Below are positions 43,768-48,857 of a stretch of DNA of 64,000 nt, piece after piece. Below the pieces are notes generated by a model. The model did not search any database. It saw only the letters and a program-made list of their open reading frames with translations, and was not told where the DNA came from. The stretch covers positions 48,774 through 112,773 of the forward strand of contig CAWBBU010000012.1 in assembly GCA_963787105.1 (NCBI GenBank). Direction: 5' to 3'. The position numbers and the translations under genes were made by a program. The DNA is from an uncultured Bacillota bacterium (GTDB lineage: Bacteria; Sysuimicrobiota; Sysuimicrobiia; Sysuimicrobiales; Segetimicrobiaceae). The stretch's first letter is position 1, and each line of letters begins with the position of its first letter.

Positions 43768-44638
43768 TGCTGAGACGGTTATGGGTGCGTCCTCGGGCAA
43801 CGCTGCTGGTGCTCGCGGCCGCGGTGGCGGCGGCGGGATGCCAGCCGCAGGTCAGCGTCGACCGCTCGAGGACATCCGTCGCCCTTCCGCCGACCCAGGA
43901 GGTCGAGATCGCACTCGTCGCCGACGAACAGGGGCATCCGATCATCGCCCGACGCGGTCGAGGGGAAGCAGGTGTTCGACGCCAACTGCGCCGTTTGCCA
44001 CGGCATGACCGGGAAAGGGAACGGGCCCATGGCGCCCACCCTCGTGGAGCCCCAGCACGACGTGCTGGCCGCGCTCGTCGGTCTGTTCGGCGTGACGGTG
44101 CACCGTCCGAACGTGCCGAGCGGCCCGGCGGACTTCACCAACCGCGATCTCGAGAGCGTGATCACCCCGGCGATCATGTTTCAGACGGTGACCCAGGGGC
44201 GCGCGTACACCGCGATGCCGGCGTTCGGGCCGCAGGCGTCGTTCGGCGCGAACCAGGCGCAGCCGCTGACCAACGCACAGCGCTGGGACGCGAACGTGTA
44301 TGAGATGATGTTCCGCACGTCCCCCGAGGCGCTCAGCGCCTCGAAAGGGCTCTACGAGGCGCAGTGCGCGGTGTGCCACGGGACGAACGGCGACGGCAAG
44401 GGGCCTCGGGGCTCCGAGATGGGGGCGGCAGATCTGGTCCTGGGCGCACGGGACGGGACCGGGGATCTTCACCGACATCAACTACATGGTGCAGCGGAAC
44501 GGGGCGGACCTGGCGAACGAGATCAACGACGGCAACGGGCTGATGCCGAGCTACCAGGGCAAGCTCACGCCGGCGCAGGTGAACGGCCTCGTGGATTACA
44601 TTTACACCTTCTTTTACAAACACCCGCCGATTCAGTAG
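43768..44638 (+). CDS. Lipoprotein diheme cytochrome c (two CxxCH), with frame breaks near 43955 and 44440
   Basis: The lipobox is LLVLAAAVAAAGCQP. The heme motifs are CAVCHGMTGKGNG and CAVCHGTNGDGKG. The C-terminus is ..NGLMPSYQGKLTPAQVNGLVDYIYTFFYKHPPIQ in an alternate frame. Confidence 0.7.
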
Positions 44639-44678
44639 CGGCGAGCCGGCGGCGAGCGCACGCGGGAGGGGCGAATCG

Positions 44679-45362
44679 ATGAAGCTTGAGAGGCGGGGGC
44701 TGATCAAAACGCTGGTGGCGATCCCGGTCATCGGGACGGTCGTCGCCCTCTTGTCCCCGCTGTTCCGTTACCTGAAGCCGAACGACGGGCCGTGGAACAT
44801 CTTCACGATCAAGCCGGACCTGCCGGCGGGCGGCGCCCAGGTGGTCGGCAAAGTGTCGCAGCTCGCGAAGCCGTGGGACTCGTTCTACTTCACCTACGTC
44901 CAGAAGTTCGTGCAGTACGATCCCGAGGGCGAAGAGGCGAGCAATGTCCCCGGGGTGGCGATCCGGCTGCCGCAGAAGGTGACGTTCACGAACGCCGAGG
45001 GGTTCACGGGGTTCCAAGGCGAGACCGACATCGTGCTGTTCTCGCGGATCTGCCCGCACCTCGGCTGCATCTACAACTACGTCAGCGACTACCATGAGGT
45101 GACCGCGGCGTACGGGGGGTTCCAGCCCCCGAAGTTCGAGGACCACGCCCTCATGGCGTGCCCGTGTCACTTCAGCATTTACGACCCGCTGTACCCCGGC
45201 AACCCCGGCAACGTGATCTCGGGACCGGCGCCGCGGGGCGCGCGCTACTTCCAGTTTCAGATCCAGGGCGACAACATCGTCGTCACCGGAGCCGAGGTCG
45301 GCGCGATCGCGAAGCGCCGGCCCGGACCCGACGGCCCGCAGGCGCCGCGCGGCGACGCGTGA
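44679..45362 (+). CDS. Rieske [2Fe-2S] protein (Tat signal)
   Basis: The Tat signal is RRGLIKTLVA. Box I is CPHLGC and box II is CPCHFS. Confidence 0.8.
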   Translation: MKLERRGLIKTLVAIPVIGTVVALLSPLFRYLKPNDGPWNIFTIKPDLPAGGAQVVGKVSQLAKPWDSFYFTYVQKFVQYDPEGEEASNVPGVAIRLPQKVTFTNAEGFTGFQGETDIVLFSRICPHLGCIYNYVSDYHEVTAAYGGFQPPKFEDHALMACPCHFSIYDPLYPGNPGNVISGPAPRGARYFQFQIQGDNIVVTGAEVGAIAKRRPGPDGPQAPRGDA

Positions 45363-45385
45363 GCCGCACGACGTAGGACGGGAGG

Positions 45386-46544: not shown

Positions 46545-47052
46545 ATGCGGCGGAAGTATCTCTTCTACGTCCTGCTCGCCGCGGCGACCGTCGGGCTGAG
46601 CGAGTTCTTGGCCGCATGGCGGACGTGGCGCGCGGCGCCCACGCTCGACGCCGCCTCCACGGTGGTGGGTCTCGCGGCGGGTCTCGTCGCCGTGATGCTG
46701 TGGCTCGGATTCCTGCTGCTACGAGGTGGATCGCGCGGCGGGGCGCATTCGCCGCCCGGTGGCCCTGTACGAATGGGCGCTCGCGCGGCGCGCCGACCGG
46801 CCGGCGGGATGGACCGGCGGGAGTGGGCAACGGAGAGGGCGGGGGGAGGGGAACGGCATGAGCGACCGCGCGTCCGCGTACACGATGTGGATCGTCGTGC
46901 TGTCGGCGCTGAGCTTCGTGTGCGTCCTTGGGATGGTGTGGGGCGAACTGATGAATCGCCACCACGTGACCGCGGTGCTCATCGGCGTCGTCCTGCTGGC
47001 GTACTCGTTCATTCTGCTGCTGTTGCGCAAGGGGGGATTCACGGGTGTATAA
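46545..47052 (+). CDS. Small polytopic membrane protein(s) between the two cytochrome b genes (one gene with a frameshift near 46700, or two)
   Basis: The product includes MRRKYLFYVLLAAATVGLSEFLAAW...VVGLAAGLVAVMLWLGFLLL and, in a second frame, ...MSDRASAYTMWIVVLSALSFVCVLGMVWGELMNRHHVTAVLIGVVLLAYSFILLLL. Confidence 0.3.
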
Positions 47053-48202
47053 GCGGGCGCTCGGCCGGCTGCTCGACGCGACGCTGCGGCTCGATACCGT
47101 CGTCGGGCGGGTCTACCCGGACGATTTCAACCCGCTGTACTACACGGGGGGCCTCGCGAACCTGTTTCTGACGATCCTCGTGCTGTCCGGCATCTTCCTG
47201 TTCTTCTATTACGTGCCGTCGTTCGACGACGCGTACACGTCGGTGCAGTTCCTGACCGTGAACGTGCCGTACGGCCAGATCATTCGCGGGATTCACCGCT
47301 ACGCCGCGGACGGCTTCATCATCGTCATCCTGCTGCATTTCTTCCGCAACTGGTTCACGGAGCGGTTCCGGTTCTCGCGGGACGAGCCGTGGATCAGCGG
47401 GATGATGCTGCTCGCGTTCGCGGGCTTCATCGGGGTGACCGGGTACATTCTGGTCTGGGACCAGCGCAGCGAGGCGCTCGTCGCGATGACCGGCAACGCC
47501 GCCGCCCACGTGCCGCTCGTCGGCGGGTGGCTGCGGAGCGCGCTGTTCGGGGGCGCGGGGCTGACCGATCTCCTCCTGCCGCGCATCCTGTTCCTCCACG
47601 TCGGTCCCGCGGTCGCGCTGTACGTGTTCCTCTGGTGGCACTATACGCGCATCCGGGCCCCCAAGGTGTGGCCGCCCGCGGTGTGGACCCTGTTCGCGCT
47701 CGGGTTCATCCTGCTCTTGACCGGGTTGATCCCCGTGACCAGCCAGCCGGCGGCCTCGGCGCTGCAGGCGCCGTCCAACTTCGCGGTGGACTGGCTGTTC
47801 TTGAGCCCGTACTGGGCGCTGCGGATCCTGCCGCCGCTCGTGCTGGTGGCGCTCGGGGTCGTGCTGATCGCGTACGGCCTGTACATCCCGTACCAGCTGC
47901 CGGAGACCCGCGCCGAGCTCGGGATCAAGGACTCCGGGGTCGCCCAGGTCATCGACGCGAACTGCACCGGCTGCGAACTGTGCTATTACGACTGCCCGTA
48001 CAACGCGATCGTGATGGTGCCCTCGCCGAGCCCCGGGGTGACGAAGGCGGCGCAGGCCCGGAAGCTGCGTGCCATCGTGCTCGAGTCCCGCTGCGTCGAA
48101 TGCGGGATCTGCATCGGCGCGTGCCCGTTTGAGGCGCTCGAACTGCCGGGGTTTCTCCAAGTGGACATTCAGAAGAAGGTGTTGAGCGCATGCCGGAGCT
48201 AA
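47045..48202 (+). CDS. Cytochrome b (canonical bis-His diheme core) fused to a C-terminal 2x[4Fe-4S] ferredoxin domain
   Basis: Helix B reads IRGIHRYAADGFIIVILLHFF (H-x13-H). Helix D reads LHVGPAVALYVFLWWHY (H-x13-H). The C-terminus reads CTGCELCYYDCPYNAIVMV ... CVECGICIGACPFEAL. Confidence 0.7.
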   Translation: MYKRALGRLLDATLRLDTVVGRVYPDDFNPLYYTGGLANLFLTILVLSGIFLFFYYVPSFDDAYTSVQFLTVNVPYGQIIRGIHRYAADGFIIVILLHFFRNWFTERFRFSRDEPWISGMMLLAFAGFIGVTGYILVWDQRSEALVAMTGNAAAHVPLVGGWLRSALFGGAGLTDLLLPRILFLHVGPAVALYVFLWWHYTRIRAPKVWPPAVWTLFALGFILLLTGLIPVTSQPAASALQAPSNFAVDWLFLSPYWALRILPPLVLVALGVVLIAYGLYIPYQLPETRAELGIKDSGVAQVIDANCTGCELCYYDCPYNAIVMVPSPSPGVTKAAQARKLRAIVLESRCVECGICIGACPFEALELPGFLQVDIQKKVLSACRS

Positions 48203-48720
48203 CGGGCGCACCCGCAACACCGCAGACCGCGCCGTCCGCGCGCGGTCCCAAGATCGTGGGGTTCTTGTGCGACTGGGCGGTCGCCGCCGACGGACTCGTC
48301 GGGGAGGACGGCACGATGCGCGATCTGCCGAGCGTGACGCTGATCAAGATTCCGTGCTCCGGGTTTACGCGTCCCGCGTGGCTGGAGTTCGCGCTGCGCA
48401 GCGGCGCCGAGGGGGTGTTCGTCTGCGGGTGCCCGCTCGGCGATTGTTTCAACCGGTACGGCAACAACCTGATCGGCGACCGCGTCGAGCAGCTGCGGCG
48501 CCGGCTCGAGCGCCAGCGCATCAATCCTGAGCGGATCGGGGCGATCTTCTACCGCCGCGACGCGCAGGCGGAATTCGTCAGCGCGGTCCGGGCGTTCGCG
48601 GACAAGGTCGCCGGGCTTCCCGGTCCGGTCCTGCCGCCTGCCAAGCCGCCGGCCGCCCCGCGCGGCCAGACCCCGGCCAAGCCCGCGGAGGCCCCGGCCC
48701 CCGAACAGGAGGGAACATAA
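48190..48720 (+). CDS. MvhD-like (methyl-viologen-reducing hydrogenase delta subunit/FlpD family) [2Fe-2S] electron-transfer protein
   Basis: Motifs PKIVGFLCDWAVAADG...LIKIPCSGFTRPAWLEFALRSGAEGVFVCGCPLGDCFNRYGNNL...INPERIGAIFY align with archaeal MvhD (PKIVGFCCNWC...IRVMCSGRIEP...GADGVFVGGCHIGDCHY..GN). Confidence 0.7.
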   Translation: MPELTGAPATPQTAPSARGPKIVGFLCDWAVAADGLVGEDGTMRDLPSVTLIKIPCSGFTRPAWLEFALRSGAEGVFVCGCPLGDCFNRYGNNLIGDRVEQLRRRLERQRINPERIGAIFYRRDAQAEFVSAVRAFADKVAGLPGPVLPPAKPPAAPRGQTPAKPAEAPAPEQEGT

Positions 48721-48857
48721 TGGCGGAACGCGCGCCGGCGGCGAAGCCGGAGGCCCCCACCGCGAGCACGGTGTACTGGCGGTACCTCGTGTTCTGGGTG
48801 TTGCTGTTCGCCTTCCTGTTCTTTGTGTCGCTGTACGGCATCGTCGCGGACGTCTAG
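48720..48857 (+). CDS. Small single-TM protein (45 aa) closing the cytochrome b-ferredoxin/MvhD operon
   Basis: The product is MAERAPAAKPEAPTASTVYWRYLVFWVLLFAFLFFVSLYGIVADV. The ATG overlaps the MvhD TAA (TAATG). It is below the ORF-track size cutoff. Confidence 0.35.
   Translation: MAERAPAAKPEAPTASTVYWRYLVFWVLLFAFLFFVSLYGIVADV

What the first reader, a model, noticed from the sequence alone, without database searches (positions are those of the whole stretch)
43768..48857. Unusual quinol-oxidoreductase-like gene cluster: diheme cyt c, Rieske, a degenerate cyt b, then a canonical cyt b fused to a 2x[4Fe-4S] ferredoxin, plus an MvhD-like protein
Seven same-strand genes encode, in order:
- a lipoprotein diheme cytochrome c
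- a Tat-exported Rieske protein
- a cytochrome b paralog
- one or two tiny membrane proteins
- a second cytochrome b carrying both H-x13-H heme-ligand pairs, fused in one polypeptide to a dicluster ferredoxin domain (CTGCELCYYDCP / CVECGICIGACP)
- an MvhD-like [2Fe-2S] protein
- a 45-aa TM protein

MvhD is the archaeal module that hands electrons from a hydrogenase to heterodisulfide reductase HdrA. I see no hydrogenase or HdrA partner here. Its direct coupling to a membrane cytochrome b-ferredoxin fusion next to a bc-type complex is not an arrangement I know as described. It suggests a route between the (mena)quinol pool and a soluble low-potential Fe-S carrier, in either direction (reverse electron flow or quinone-linked ferredoxin reduction). 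The polyprenyl-diphosphate synthase (quinone tail) immediately downstream is consistent with a quinone-centred locus.
Basis: partly seen in the sequence, partly recalled or inferred. Interest (0 to 1): 0.85.

Follow-up and report, generated by a model that had tools for sequence, protein, structure and literature searches.

The report
Two-cytochrome-b respiratory complex with iron-sulfur arm
This is the only quinol-to-cytochrome-c respiratory complex of an uncultured soil phylum, and it is built unusually: one cytochrome b keeps the quinol-oxidising site but has lost its inner heme, while a second keeps both hemes and is wired to an iron-sulfur chain in the cytoplasm, which could link respiration directly to ferredoxin-type carriers.

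Summary
Eight same-strand, partly overlapping genes (43767-48857) encode:
- a diheme cytochrome c
- a Rieske protein
- cytochrome b1
- two small membrane proteins
- cytochrome b2 fused to a 2x[4Fe-4S] ferredoxin domain
- an MvhD/FlpD [2Fe-2S] protein
- a 45-aa membrane protein

The b2-ferredoxin fusion is real: more than 300 homologues have the same architecture. The window does carry single-base insertions that break the cytochrome c and first small-protein frames. Relatives are intact.

The cluster is syntenic in about 65 loci of Candidatus Sysuimicrobiota (CSP1-3). Published tables list exactly two cytochrome b genes per genome there and no other complex III. The same eight-gene unit follows cbb3 oxidase genes in three other lineages.

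Across 51 orthologues, b1 keeps a strict Qo motif and the outer-heme histidines, but has Arg in place of an inner-heme ligand. b2 keeps all four histidines and has a degenerate Qo motif.

In other bacteria, cytochrome b, ferredoxin and FlpD form a single polypeptide. The Fdx+FlpD pair matches the C-terminus of HdrA2.

Best reading: a heterodimeric Rieske/cytochrome b complex with cross-monomer electron transfer and a cytoplasmic Fe-S branch at heme bH. The direction of flow is unresolved. It is a new variant of a known kind; only the fusion clade had been noted before (Kao & Hunte 2014).

The parts
43767..44638 (+). Diheme c-type cytochrome, probable lipoprotein. High-potential acceptor of the complex.
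   Evidence: Two CAVCH motifs. Pfam Cytochrome_CBB3 2.6e-20 and Cytochrom_C 3.5e-19. The frame is broken by 1-nt insertions at 43945 and 44427 relative to L001. The orthologue is intact at 290 aa in L081. Two CxxCH motifs in 47/47 orthologues, and a lipobox-like xxGC/xxAC in most.
44679..45362 (+). Rieske [2Fe-2S] protein with a Tat-type signal or anchor.
   Evidence: CPHLGC and CPCHFSIYD motifs, 51/51 in orthologues. Pfam Rieske E 0.0074, below cutoff. NCBIfam and PDB hits to Rieske proteins are weak.
45386..46543 (+). Cytochrome b1: full-length b6 + subunit-IV type. It has a strict Qo motif (PVLSDWYFLALYQ) and the bL histidine pair, but no bis-His site for heme bH.
   Evidence: Pfam Cytochrome_B 1.6e-31 and Cytochrom_B_C 6.5e-6. 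Alignment to cytochrome b6 1vf5_A. Across 51 orthologues: H86/H187 equivalents 51/51 His, H100 equivalent 51/51 Arg, H202 equivalent F/Y/L/M. Qo motif conserved 51/51.
46545..46861 (+). Small membrane subunit A, about 100-106 aa in relatives, with a conserved FLAAWR motif. Frameshifted in the window.
   Evidence: tblastn of the L081 100-aa protein matches in two frames, 46545-46718 and 46720-46812. Insertions relative to L001. Homologues occupy the same position in L085, L089 and L090. No Pfam family.
46858..47052 (+). Small membrane subunit B (64 aa).
   Evidence: Matches the 64-aa gene of L081 over its full length. Found in 49 loci. Overlaps the b2 start by 8 nt.
47045..48202 (+). Cytochrome b2 fused to a 2x[4Fe-4S] ferredoxin domain. 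It has six TM helices (A-F), both heme sites, a degenerate Qo motif, and a cytoplasmic ferredoxin domain (residues ~300-385).
   Evidence: Pfam Cytochrome_B 9e-30 and Fer4 families. Four His and 8 Cys are invariant in 49 sequences down to 26% identity. More than 300 homologues share the architecture. AF2 model: pLDDT 87.9, pTM 0.85. The Fer4 part matches HdrA2 positions 568-637.
48190..48720 (+). MvhD/FlpD-type [2Fe-2S] protein, cytoplasmic end of the Fe-S chain.
   Evidence: PF02662 3.7e-23. MvhD 5ODC_D 4.6e-18. HdrA2 C-terminus 1.1e-19. C27, C56, C81 and C86 are invariant in 65 + 12 orthologues. Fused to the cytochrome b-Fdx in other lineages.
48720..48857 (+). Small single-TM subunit C (45 aa).
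   Evidence: Conserved after FlpD in Sysuimicrobiota and in L085, L089 and L090 (43-84 aa, shared FW..FF...FGLIA motif). Its start overlaps the FlpD stop.
48931..49918 (+). Polyprenyl diphosphate synthase. A conserved neighbour, not a subunit. Frameshifted near its 3' end in the window.
   Evidence: tblastn of the L081 332-aa PF00348 protein matches in two frames. Downstream of the cluster in 55 loci.
39000..42533 (+). Cytochrome c maturation genes (ccmC, small gene, ccmE, ccmF, ccmH-like). Upstream context.
   Evidence: Matches to L081 genes carrying Pfam Cytochrom_C_asm, CcmE and CcmF_C. ccmC and ccmF are frameshifted in the window.

Best explanation
**What it is.** The eight genes encode one membrane complex, which is the organism's complex III (menaquinol:cytochrome c oxidoreductase).

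**Proposed wiring.** The cytochrome b core is a heterodimer of two paralogues with divided labour.
1. b1 docks the Rieske protein and oxidises quinol at a canonical Qo site.
2. One electron goes Rieske -> diheme cytochrome c -> oxidases.
3. The other lands on heme bL of b1. Because b1 has no bis-His heme bH, it must cross to heme bL of b2 and then reach heme bH of b2.
4. On the cytoplasmic face of b2 sits a chain borrowed from HdrA/MvhD: two [4Fe-4S] clusters (fused ferredoxin domain) and one [2Fe-2S] cluster (FlpD).

**Flow.**
- The bulk of the b-chain electrons must still re-reduce quinone at a single Qi-type site on b2, that is, an ordinary Q cycle run across the dimer. No cytoplasmic low-potential acceptor could be recycled at respiratory rates within the energy available.
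- The Fe-S arm is a side branch. It connects heme bH/Qi to a diffusible cytoplasmic one-electron carrier, most likely ferredoxin.
- My preferred direction is inward: reduced ferredoxin or another low-potential donor -> FlpD -> Fdx -> bH -> quinone. That is a built-in ferredoxin:quinone reductase, like the route long proposed for cytochrome b6f in cyclic electron flow.
- The chain is in principle reversible.

**Shown:** gene content, cofactor-ligand patterns, conservation, fusion and synteny, sole-complex-III status.
**Inferred:** the heterodimer, a Qi site on b2, the partner, the direction.
For: **One unit**
- Same order in about 65 Sysuimicrobiota loci and in three other lineages directly after ccoNO.
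- Overlapping genes.

**Sole complex III**
- K00412 = 2 per MAG in 44/45, with no other complex III KO.
- cox/cco genes are present and K00412 is transcribed.

**Division of labour**
- b1: Qo motif P[IV]LSDWYFLALYQ in 51/51; bL histidines 51/51; H100 equivalent Arg 51/51; H202 equivalent non-His. Arg is also found at this position in L085, L089 and L090.
- b2: all four His in 66 + 13 sequences, and a Qo tryptophan that is often V/I.

**Precedent for the route**
- Engineered bc1 dimers, cross-inactivated so that electrons must pass bL -> bL, are functional in vivo (PMC4330944, PMC4152375).

**The Fe-S arm is an integral wire**
- 8 Fer4 Cys and 4 FlpD Cys are invariant.
- Fdx+FlpD matches the HdrA2 C-terminus at 8e-31.
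- Cytochrome b-Fdx-FlpD is one polypeptide in many lineages.
- The AF2 model of a triple fusion is compact and confident: pLDDT 93.2, pTM 0.90.

**Cytoplasmic location**
- The ferredoxin domain follows helix F, the sixth TM, of a cytochrome b whose N-terminus is on the N side (established bc1/b6f topology).

**Inward direction**
- It is thermodynamically downhill.
- In Mvh-Hdr, MvhD feeds electrons into the HdrA ferredoxin domain (established knowledge).
- 2-oxoacid:ferredoxin oxidoreductases are present in all MAGs.

**Side branch rather than main route**
- My own energy bookkeeping: about 320 mV per electron is available from menaquinol to cytochrome c. Lifting the partner electron to ferredoxin level against the membrane potential and re-injecting it through a pumping complex needs more than that.
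Against:
- A Qi pocket in b2 could not be verified from sequence.
- No cytoplasmic partner gene is conserved next to FlpD in any lineage.
- The genomes already hold a second nuo-like set lacking extra nuoEFG, which could oxidise ferredoxin with energy conservation. A non-pumping entry therefore looks redundant.
- The Rieske keeps the Ser and Tyr that mark high-potential clusters, together with an Asp-type Qo motif typical of menaquinol systems (PMC4122944). This is the combination used to argue for outward, bifurcating flow in anammox complexes (PMC12954380).
- Loss of bH in b1 funnels every Qo electron past the Fe-S arm. That fits output at least as well as input.
- In three other lineages b1 retains one bH-ligand His, so a five-coordinate heme there is not excluded.
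Confidence: 0.4

Rival explanations
1. **Outward, bifurcating flow.** Same architecture, but the Fe-S arm is the purpose of the complex. Quinol oxidation at Qo sends one electron uphill via bL(b1) -> bL(b2) -> bH(b2) -> 2x[4Fe-4S] -> [2Fe-2S], to reduce a cytoplasmic low-potential carrier (ferredoxin, flavodoxin or an NAD(P)-linked partner). The step is paid for by the electron that falls to a high-potential Rieske/cytochrome c/oxidase chain. This is a quinone-based electron bifurcation that makes low-potential reductant in an aerobe, as proposed for the anammox Rieske/cytochrome b complexes.
For: - b1 lacks bH, so all Qo-derived electrons are channelled to the one heme that touches the Fe-S chain.
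- The Rieske has CPCH[LF]SIYD with both the Ser and the Tyr associated with high potential, while the Qo motif is the Asp type that correlates with menaquinone and low-potential Rieske. This unusual pairing implies a large driving force and a very low-potential bL, which is the argument made for Kuenenia complexes (PMC12954380).
- The complex sits beside cbb3 or other heme-copper oxidases, which provide the pull.
- Many members of the phylum fix CO2 by ferredoxin-demanding routes (PMC11604079).
Against: - As the only complex III it cannot send half of all respiratory electrons to a low-potential acceptor. My estimate puts the reachable potential at about -300 mV under a normal membrane potential, and recycling through a pumping complex would violate the energy budget. 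At most this can be a minor branch.
- No flavoprotein or NAD(P)-binding subunit is present, unlike in anammox.
- The quinone type and all potentials are unknown.
- The module also occurs without any Rieske protein.
Confidence: 0.3
2. **Two separate machines in one operon.**
1. A Rieske/b1/cytochrome c quinol oxidase that works without a Q cycle.
2. An independent b2-Fdx-FlpD module, homologous to the stand-alone triple fusions. It carries electrons across the membrane between the cytoplasm and either the quinone pool or periplasmic acceptors. It could, for example, supply reducing power for oxidase or copper-centre maintenance, or donate directly to a heme-copper enzyme.
For: - Stand-alone cytochrome b-Fdx-FlpD fusions exist without Rieske or b1. 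They are consistently next to a COX1-family gene and SCO1/SenC copper chaperones. One is fused to SCO1 and some carry a periplasmic cytochrome c domain.
- Kao & Hunte noted such proteins in Rieske-less clusters.
Against: - A b1 with only heme bL has no exit for its second electron unless it contacts another b heme.
- b1 and b2 always co-occur, with the two small subunits between them, in four lineages.
- b2 has lost a good Qo motif exactly where b1 keeps it. That complementarity is hard to explain for independent enzymes.
Confidence: 0.15
3. **Non-catalytic Fe-S arm.** The arm acts as a redox sensor or brake that reports the cytoplasmic redox state to the complex, or as an overflow valve that drains over-reduced b hemes to limit superoxide formation at Qo.
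For: - No dedicated partner gene is found in any lineage.
- The module is associated with aerobic terminal oxidases, where over-reduction is dangerous.
Against: - Three clusters with fully conserved ligands, forming a linear chain homologous to a known electron-transfer unit, are more than a sensor usually needs.
- There is no output domain.
Confidence: 0.1

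Closest known systems
Canonical Rieske/cytochrome b complexes (cytochrome bc1, b6f, Firmicute-type menaquinol:cytochrome c reductases)
   Same: - A Rieske protein with the CxHxGC/CxCH boxes.
- A cytochrome b of the PF00033 family.
- b1 is most similar to cytochrome b6 plus subunit IV (3e-37 and 2e-7).
- A PEWY-type Qo motif (SDWY).
- A c-type cytochrome subunit and small single-helix subunits.
- Function as the link between quinol and cytochrome c oxidases.
   Different: - Two different cytochrome b paralogues (28-33% identical) instead of a homodimer.
- One lacks a bis-His heme bH site.
- The other lacks helices G/H and carries a ferredoxin domain.
- There is an extra MvhD-type subunit on the N side.
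- There is no Cys35, so no heme ci.
[quoted passage not shown]
   Same: - Same cytochrome b-2x[4Fe-4S]-MvhD module.
- b2 is 30-35% identical over its whole length to such fusions.
- An Asp-type Qo motif.
- The function is uncharacterised.
   Different: - There the three parts are one polypeptide, no Rieske protein is present, and (my survey) the neighbours are a COX1-family protein and SCO1/SenC.
- Here FlpD is a separate, overlapping gene, and the module is embedded in a Rieske/b1/cytochrome c operon.
Anammox Rieske/cytochrome b complexes Kuste4569-4574 and Kustd1480-1485 (Kartal et al. 2013 proposal; Hauser et al. 2025, PMC12954380)
   Same: - A b6f-like core with an extra Fe-S-containing module on the negative side of the membrane.
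- The idea that the low-potential branch of Qo bifurcation is led out to a cytoplasmic acceptor.
- A Rieske with high-potential features combined with menaquinone-type chemistry.
   Different: - The anammox module is an NAD(P) oxidoreductase flavoprotein and the P side carries multiheme cytochromes/HAO.
- Its cytochrome b is a normal homodimer with heme ci.
- Here there is no flavin or NAD(P) domain, the module derives from HdrA/MvhD, and the cytochrome b core is asymmetric.
HdrA C-terminal ferredoxin domain + MvhD (Mvh-Hdr complex, HdrA2 of Methanosarcina; FlxD, QmoB)
   Same: - The ferredoxin domain and FlpD here are homologous to HdrA2 positions about 568-770.
- Same cluster ligands.
- Same role as a short inter-protein electron wire.
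   Different: - No HdrA flavin domain.
- No HdrBC.
- No hydrogenase.
- The wire is attached to a membrane cytochrome b of the bc1 family.
QmoABC, HdrDE, DsrMK, NarGHI-type modules (diheme membrane cytochrome b + cytoplasmic Fe-S protein)
   Same: - Same logic: two stacked b hemes connect a quinone site to cytoplasmic Fe-S clusters.
- Qmo even includes an MvhD-like domain.
   Different: Those use NarI/HdrE-type cytochrome b, which is unrelated to the bc1/b6f cytochrome b used here. They have no Rieske protein or bifurcating Qo site.
Engineered cross-inactivated bc1 dimers (Osyczka laboratory; PMC4330944, PMC4152375)
   Same: Electrons are forced from Qo of one monomer through bL-bL to bH/Qi of the other. 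These dimers were shown to support growth.
   Different: Those are laboratory constructs. This would be a natural, fixed version.

Membership tests
Rieske/cytochrome b complex (bc1/b6f superfamily) | Rieske [2Fe-2S] subunit with CxHxGC and CxCH cluster-binding boxes | tested here: met
   CPHLGC and CPCHFSIYD are present, in 51/51 orthologues. The Pfam Rieske score of 16.6 is below the 20.3 cutoff, so the protein is divergent.
Rieske/cytochrome b complex (bc1/b6f superfamily) | Cytochrome b with four conserved His ligating hemes bL and bH in each monomer | tested here: not met
   b2 meets it, with H84/H98/H185/H199 invariant. b1 does not: the H100 equivalent is Arg in 51/51 and the H202 equivalent is non-His in Sysuimicrobiota.
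Rieske/cytochrome b complex (bc1/b6f superfamily) | PEWY-type Qo motif on the ef loop | tested here: met
   b1 has SDWY in 51/51 orthologues and in three other lineages. b2 has only xD[W/V/I]F.
Rieske/cytochrome b complex (bc1/b6f superfamily) | Periplasmic c-type (or f-type) cytochrome subunit | tested here: met
   A diheme cytochrome c lies upstream of the Rieske gene. Its frame is interrupted in the window but intact in relatives.
Rieske/cytochrome b complex (bc1/b6f superfamily) | Homodimeric cytochrome b core with a Qi quinone-reduction site | not testable with these tools
   No multimer modelling or model coordinates were available. Two complementary paralogues argue for a heterodimer. 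A Qi site on b2 is inferred from energetics only.
MvhD/FlpD family (PF02662) | Match above the Pfam gathering score, with the four conserved cluster cysteines | tested here: met
   82.3 bits against a cutoff of 22.3. MvhD 5ODC_D 4.6e-18. C27/C56/C81/C86 are invariant in 77 orthologues.
MvhD/FlpD family (PF02662) | Genomic or physical association with an Mvh/Vhu hydrogenase or HdrA (or Flx) partner | tested here: not met
   None in the 64-kb window, in 20 kb around the orthologue in L081, or in L085, L089 and L090.
'PDWF-FeS' cytochrome b-4Fe4S-MvhD fusion clade (Kao & Hunte 2014) | Cytochrome b, 4Fe-4S domain and MvhD in one polypeptide | tested here: not met
   Here cytochrome b-Fer4 is one gene and FlpD a separate gene overlapping it by 13 nt. 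True triple fusions are 505-790 aa.
'PDWF-FeS' cytochrome b-4Fe4S-MvhD fusion clade (Kao & Hunte 2014) | No Rieske protein in the gene cluster | tested here: not met
   Rieske and a second cytochrome b lie immediately upstream in all Sysuimicrobiota loci.
Anammox-type NAD(P)H-generating Rieske/cytochrome b complexes | N-side NAD(P) oxidoreductase flavoprotein subunit | tested here: not met
   No FAD or NAD(P) domain in any of the eight products or their flanks.
Qmo/HdrDE/DsrMK-type quinone-linked Fe-S modules | NarI/HdrE-type diheme cytochrome b membrane anchor | tested here: not met
   Both cytochromes b hit PF00033/PF13631 and solved bc1/b6f chains only.

The most novel reading that the evidence does not exclude
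This is a natural quinone-based electron-bifurcating complex III of aerobic and facultative bacteria. An asymmetric cytochrome b heterodimer channels the low-potential electron from Qo through bL-bL-bH into an HdrA/MvhD-derived Fe-S chain. That chain reduces ferredoxin (or a similar carrier) in the cytoplasm. It would give these organisms, and several other lineages with the same operon next to cbb3 oxidases, a respiration-driven source of low-potential reductant without flavin-based bifurcation or reverse complex I.
Probability: 0.3. Interest if true: 0.92.

Novelty: new variant of a known kind. Interest (0 to 1): 0.72.

Why it matters
Rieske/cytochrome b complexes are treated as homodimers, with two identical Q-cycle halves. 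Whether electron transfer between the two bL hemes matters physiologically has been debated for decades and tested only with engineered enzymes.

This complex appears to have hard-wired that route. One monomer can only oxidise quinol. The other can only carry the electron across the membrane. It therefore offers a natural test system.

It also places a three-cluster Fe-S wire at heme bH, in the only complex III of a widespread soil and hot-spring phylum and of at least three other lineages. That makes two long-standing ideas directly testable:
- ferredoxin feeding the Qi side of a bc/b6f complex, as in cyclic electron flow;
- Qo bifurcation used to make low-potential reductant, as proposed for anammox.

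Finally, it shows that standard KEGG-style annotation ('two cytochrome b genes, no Rieske') hides a distinct respiratory enzyme.

Tried and rejected
- **Fusion as an indel artefact: rejected.** This needed checking because the window does have about one frameshift per 2 kb. However, the b2-Fdx frame is continuous, and 311 homologues, all of the best 120, share the architecture and length.
- **Pseudogenised locus: rejected.** The frameshifts hit essential genes across 19 kb (ccmF, pbp2, polyprenyl synthase). They are single inserted bases absent from relatives that are 88% identical at the DNA level. Sequence error is the simpler reading.
- **Hidden hydrogenase/Hdr partner in the window: none.** The rest of the window is housekeeping.
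- **Heme ci (b6f/Firmicute type): rejected.** The Cys35 equivalent is Ile/Leu in b1 and Tyr in b2.
- **Searching for a published description:**
  - Four full-text searches found no description of the Rieske/b1/b2 arrangement.
  - A fifth found only the engineered-dimer papers used as precedent.
  - A sixth led to the single paragraph in Kao & Hunte 2014 on the Rieske-less fusion clade.
  - One table entry in PMC8756737 also lists such a protein.
  - The two Sysuimicrobiota papers do not mention the complex.
- **Taxon names for the other lineages: not obtained.** The listing of cluster members gave no names.
- **Fold search of the triple-fusion model:** returned only bc1/b6f cytochrome b chains. 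No solved structure contains the whole module.
- **Pfam and NCBIfam on the three small proteins and on the 217-aa periplasmic protein of the delta loci:** no family.
- **Heme-to-cluster distances: not measured.** Model coordinates are not exposed.

Full report
**1. What is in the window**

The region 43.7-48.9 kb of this 70% G+C window holds eight + strand genes. Several overlap: tmB/b2 by 8 nt, b2/FlpD by 13 nt, FlpD/tm45 by 1 nt.

- a diheme c-type cytochrome (Cytochrome_CBB3 2.6e-20);
- cytochrome b1 (Cytochrome_B 1.6e-31 plus the C-terminal/subunit IV part);
- cytochrome b2 with a dicluster ferredoxin domain (Cytochrome_B 9e-30, Fer4 families);
- an FlpD/MvhD protein (PF02662 3.7e-23).

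The Rieske protein scores below the Pfam cutoff (E 0.0074). It nevertheless has the CPHLGC and CPCHFSIYD boxes.

The solved MvhD of the Mvh-Hdr complex matches the FlpD protein at 4.6e-18. No hydrogenase or HdrA gene lies in the window. The rest is housekeeping, heme synthesis and cytochrome c maturation.

**2. Quality of the sequence**

The window carries many single-base insertions relative to intact relatives. They affect ccmC, ccmF, the cytochrome c gene (positions 43945 and 44427), the first small membrane protein, the polyprenyl synthase and pbp2.

These insertions hit essential genes. They are absent from a relative with 88% DNA identity over 12.7 kb, so I read them as assembly errors.

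The Rieske, b1, b2-Fdx, FlpD and 45-aa genes are intact. The b2-ferredoxin fusion is not an artefact: 311 homologues were found, and the best 120 are all 381-408 aa with both domains.

**3. Whose genome, and how conserved**

A scan of one genome per species returned 80 loci. The close ones are MAGs of Candidatus Sysuimicrobiota (CSP1-3/ANGP1), often mislabelled Armatimonadota or Bacillota.

In about 65 of them the order is the same: cytochrome c, Rieske, b1, small protein(s), b2-Fdx, FlpD, (45-aa protein), polyprenyl synthase.

The supplementary gene table of the phylum paper lists exactly two cytochrome b genes (K00412) in 44 of 45 MAGs. It lists no other complex III orthologue. It also shows cox and cco oxidases, and transcription of K00412 (PMC11604079). 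Neither phylum paper discusses the complex. This cluster is therefore the phylum's only Rieske/cytochrome b complex.

**4. The two cytochromes b are complementary**

I aligned both to cytochrome b6 and across orthologues.

| Feature | b1 (51 orthologues) | b2 (66 Sysuimicrobiota + 13 distant) |
|---|---|---|
| Outer-heme His pair (b6 H86/H187) | 51/51 | invariant |
| Inner-heme ligand, b6 H100 position | Arg, 51/51 | His, invariant |
| Inner-heme ligand, b6 H202 position | Phe/Tyr/Leu/Met | His, invariant |
| Qo motif | P[IV]LSDWYFLALYQ, 51/51 | Asp kept; Trp often Val or Ile |

Neither has the cysteine for heme ci.

So b1 can oxidise quinol but has no bis-His inner heme. b2 has the full transmembrane heme pair but a poor Qo site. 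That pattern is what engineered, cross-inactivated bc1 dimers look like, and those function in vivo through bL-to-bL transfer (PMC4330944, PMC4152375). I infer a b1:b2 heterodimer. I could not model it.

**5. The iron-sulfur arm**

- All eight ferredoxin cysteines are invariant in 49 sequences down to 26% identity.
- The four FlpD cysteines are invariant in 77 orthologues and align with MvhD cysteines.
- The ferredoxin domain plus FlpD together match the C-terminal ferredoxin + MvhD part of HdrA2: 8e-31 for a fused homologue; 1e-19 for the window's FlpD alone, matching positions 644-770; and a weaker match (3.9e-7) of the window's ferredoxin domain to positions 568-637. The pair is thus a known electron-transfer couple that was recruited to a cytochrome b.
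- In Deltaproteobacteria MAGs and many other lineages, cytochrome b, ferredoxin and FlpD are one polypeptide of 505-790 aa.
- An AlphaFold2 model of one such protein is compact and confident (pLDDT 93.2, pTM 0.90). The window's b2-Fdx model is also good (87.9, 0.85).
- The ferredoxin domain follows the sixth helix, so it lies in the cytoplasm next to heme bH. This rests on the established topology of cytochrome b, and on the domain having no export signal.

**6. Wider distribution**

An exhaustive profile search found 234 clusters at E <= 1e-30. Most cover the ferredoxin domain.

Three further lineages (L085, L089, L090) carry the same eight-gene unit directly downstream of ccoN-ccoO:
- Rieske;
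- b1, with Arg at the H100 position and the SDWY motif;
- two small proteins;
- b2-Fdx;
- FlpD;
- a small TM protein.

There b1 still has the second bH-ligand histidine.

The Rieske-less triple fusions are consistently next to a COX1-family gene and SCO1/SenC copper chaperones. Some carry a periplasmic domain with a cytochrome c, and one has SCO1 fused.

**7. How it most likely works**

*Shown:* the parts list, the ligand patterns, the conservation, the fusions, and the sole-complex-III status.

*Inferred:*
- Quinol is oxidised at Qo of b1.
- One electron goes to the Rieske cluster, cytochrome c and the oxidases.
- The other goes bL(b1) -> bL(b2) -> bH(b2).

This is the only complex III. About 320 mV per electron is available between menaquinol and cytochrome c. 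Given that, the partner electron cannot, as the main route, be lifted to ferredoxin potential against the membrane potential and then recycled through a pumping complex. Most of it must re-reduce quinone at a Qi-type site on b2. The Fe-S arm is therefore a side branch at heme bH.

*Direction.* I favour entry of low-potential cytoplasmic electrons, for three reasons:
- it is downhill;
- MvhD natively feeds the HdrA ferredoxin domain;
- 2-oxoacid:ferredoxin oxidoreductases are universal in the phylum.

The opposite direction has real support:
- the Rieske keeps the Ser and Tyr of high-potential clusters together with an Asp-type, menaquinol-type Qo motif, the argument used for NAD(P)H-generating anammox complexes (PMC12954380);
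- loss of bH in b1 funnels every electron past the arm.

I put inward at about 0.4, outward at about 0.3, separate complexes at about 0.15, and a non-catalytic role at about 0.1.

**8. Relation to what is known**

It works like a Rieske/cytochrome b complex. It meets the Rieske, Qo-motif and cytochrome c criteria. It fails the 'four histidines in each cytochrome b' criterion for b1, and it adds an N-side Fe-S chain.

The cytochrome b-4Fe4S-MvhD fusion was noticed once, as a Rieske-less 'PDWF-FeS clade' in Magnetospirillum magneticum and Turneriella parva, without a function (PMC4122944). One such protein is also listed in a table in PMC8756737.

I found no description of the arrangement with a Rieske protein and a bH-less partner cytochrome b. 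The closest functional analogues are:
- the anammox complexes, which use a different N-side module and a symmetric core;
- conceptually, QmoABC/HdrDE-type modules, which use an unrelated cytochrome b.

**9. Verdict**

This is a new variant of a known kind of enzyme. It is conserved across a phylum and beyond, and the key mechanistic question, the direction and partner of the Fe-S arm, remains open. Interest 0.72.

Noticed in passing
window 39000-57700 (e.g. ~39040, ~39479, ~41516, 43945, 44427, ~46718, ~46838, ~49690, ~57350-57380): About ten single-base insertions break reading frames of ccmC, ccmF, cytochrome c, the 100-aa membrane protein, polyprenyl synthase and pbp2, relative to intact relatives (L001, L081). 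The three I could align base by base are not in homopolymer runs. This looks like assembly or read error rather than gene decay.
   Followed up: partly
L066-L080 (e.g. L078:5352-10142), L086, L087, L088: Cytochrome b-Fer4-FlpD triple fusions sit in a conserved cluster with a COX1-family protein lacking an obvious subunit II, SCO1/SenC, sometimes UbiA/CtaB and PCuAC, and a TM + periplasmic domain protein. That last protein is separate (217 aa) or fused, sometimes with a C-terminal cytochrome c. P0145 has SCO1 fused at its N-terminus. An unstudied oxidase- or NOR-associated module.
   Followed up: partly
L085:2801-11500, L089:2888-11045, L090:2848-10795: In three non-Sysuimicrobiota lineages the same Rieske/b1/b2-Fdx/FlpD unit directly follows ccoN-ccoO (cbb3 oxidase) and extra cytochrome c genes. 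This suggests a dedicated bc-cbb3 chain or supercomplex. The taxa could not be named.
   Followed up: partly
window 49979-51678 and 51888-52067: A HisKA_2-type sensor kinase, an ANTAR response regulator and TatA follow the polyprenyl synthase. This order is conserved with L081. TatA would be needed to export the Rieske protein.
   Followed up: no
window 21777-24295 and 29344-30225: Heme biosynthesis genes (hemB/ALAD, a class-III aminotransferase likely to be hemL) and ccmB lie upstream. About 25 kb of the window is therefore devoted to heme and cytochrome assembly and use.
   Followed up: no
window 42715-43227: A CarboxypepD_reg-like protein (317 aa in L081) sits between the ccm genes and the cytochrome c gene in both the window and L081. 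Only its first ~200 residues match in one frame in the window. Function unknown.
   Followed up: no
literature: PMC11604079 Table S5: Sysuimicrobiota MAGs list two sets of membrane nuo/ndh genes but a single nuoEFG, and korAB in every MAG. A second, possibly ferredoxin-dependent complex I-like enzyme may therefore exist alongside the complex described here.
   Followed up: no
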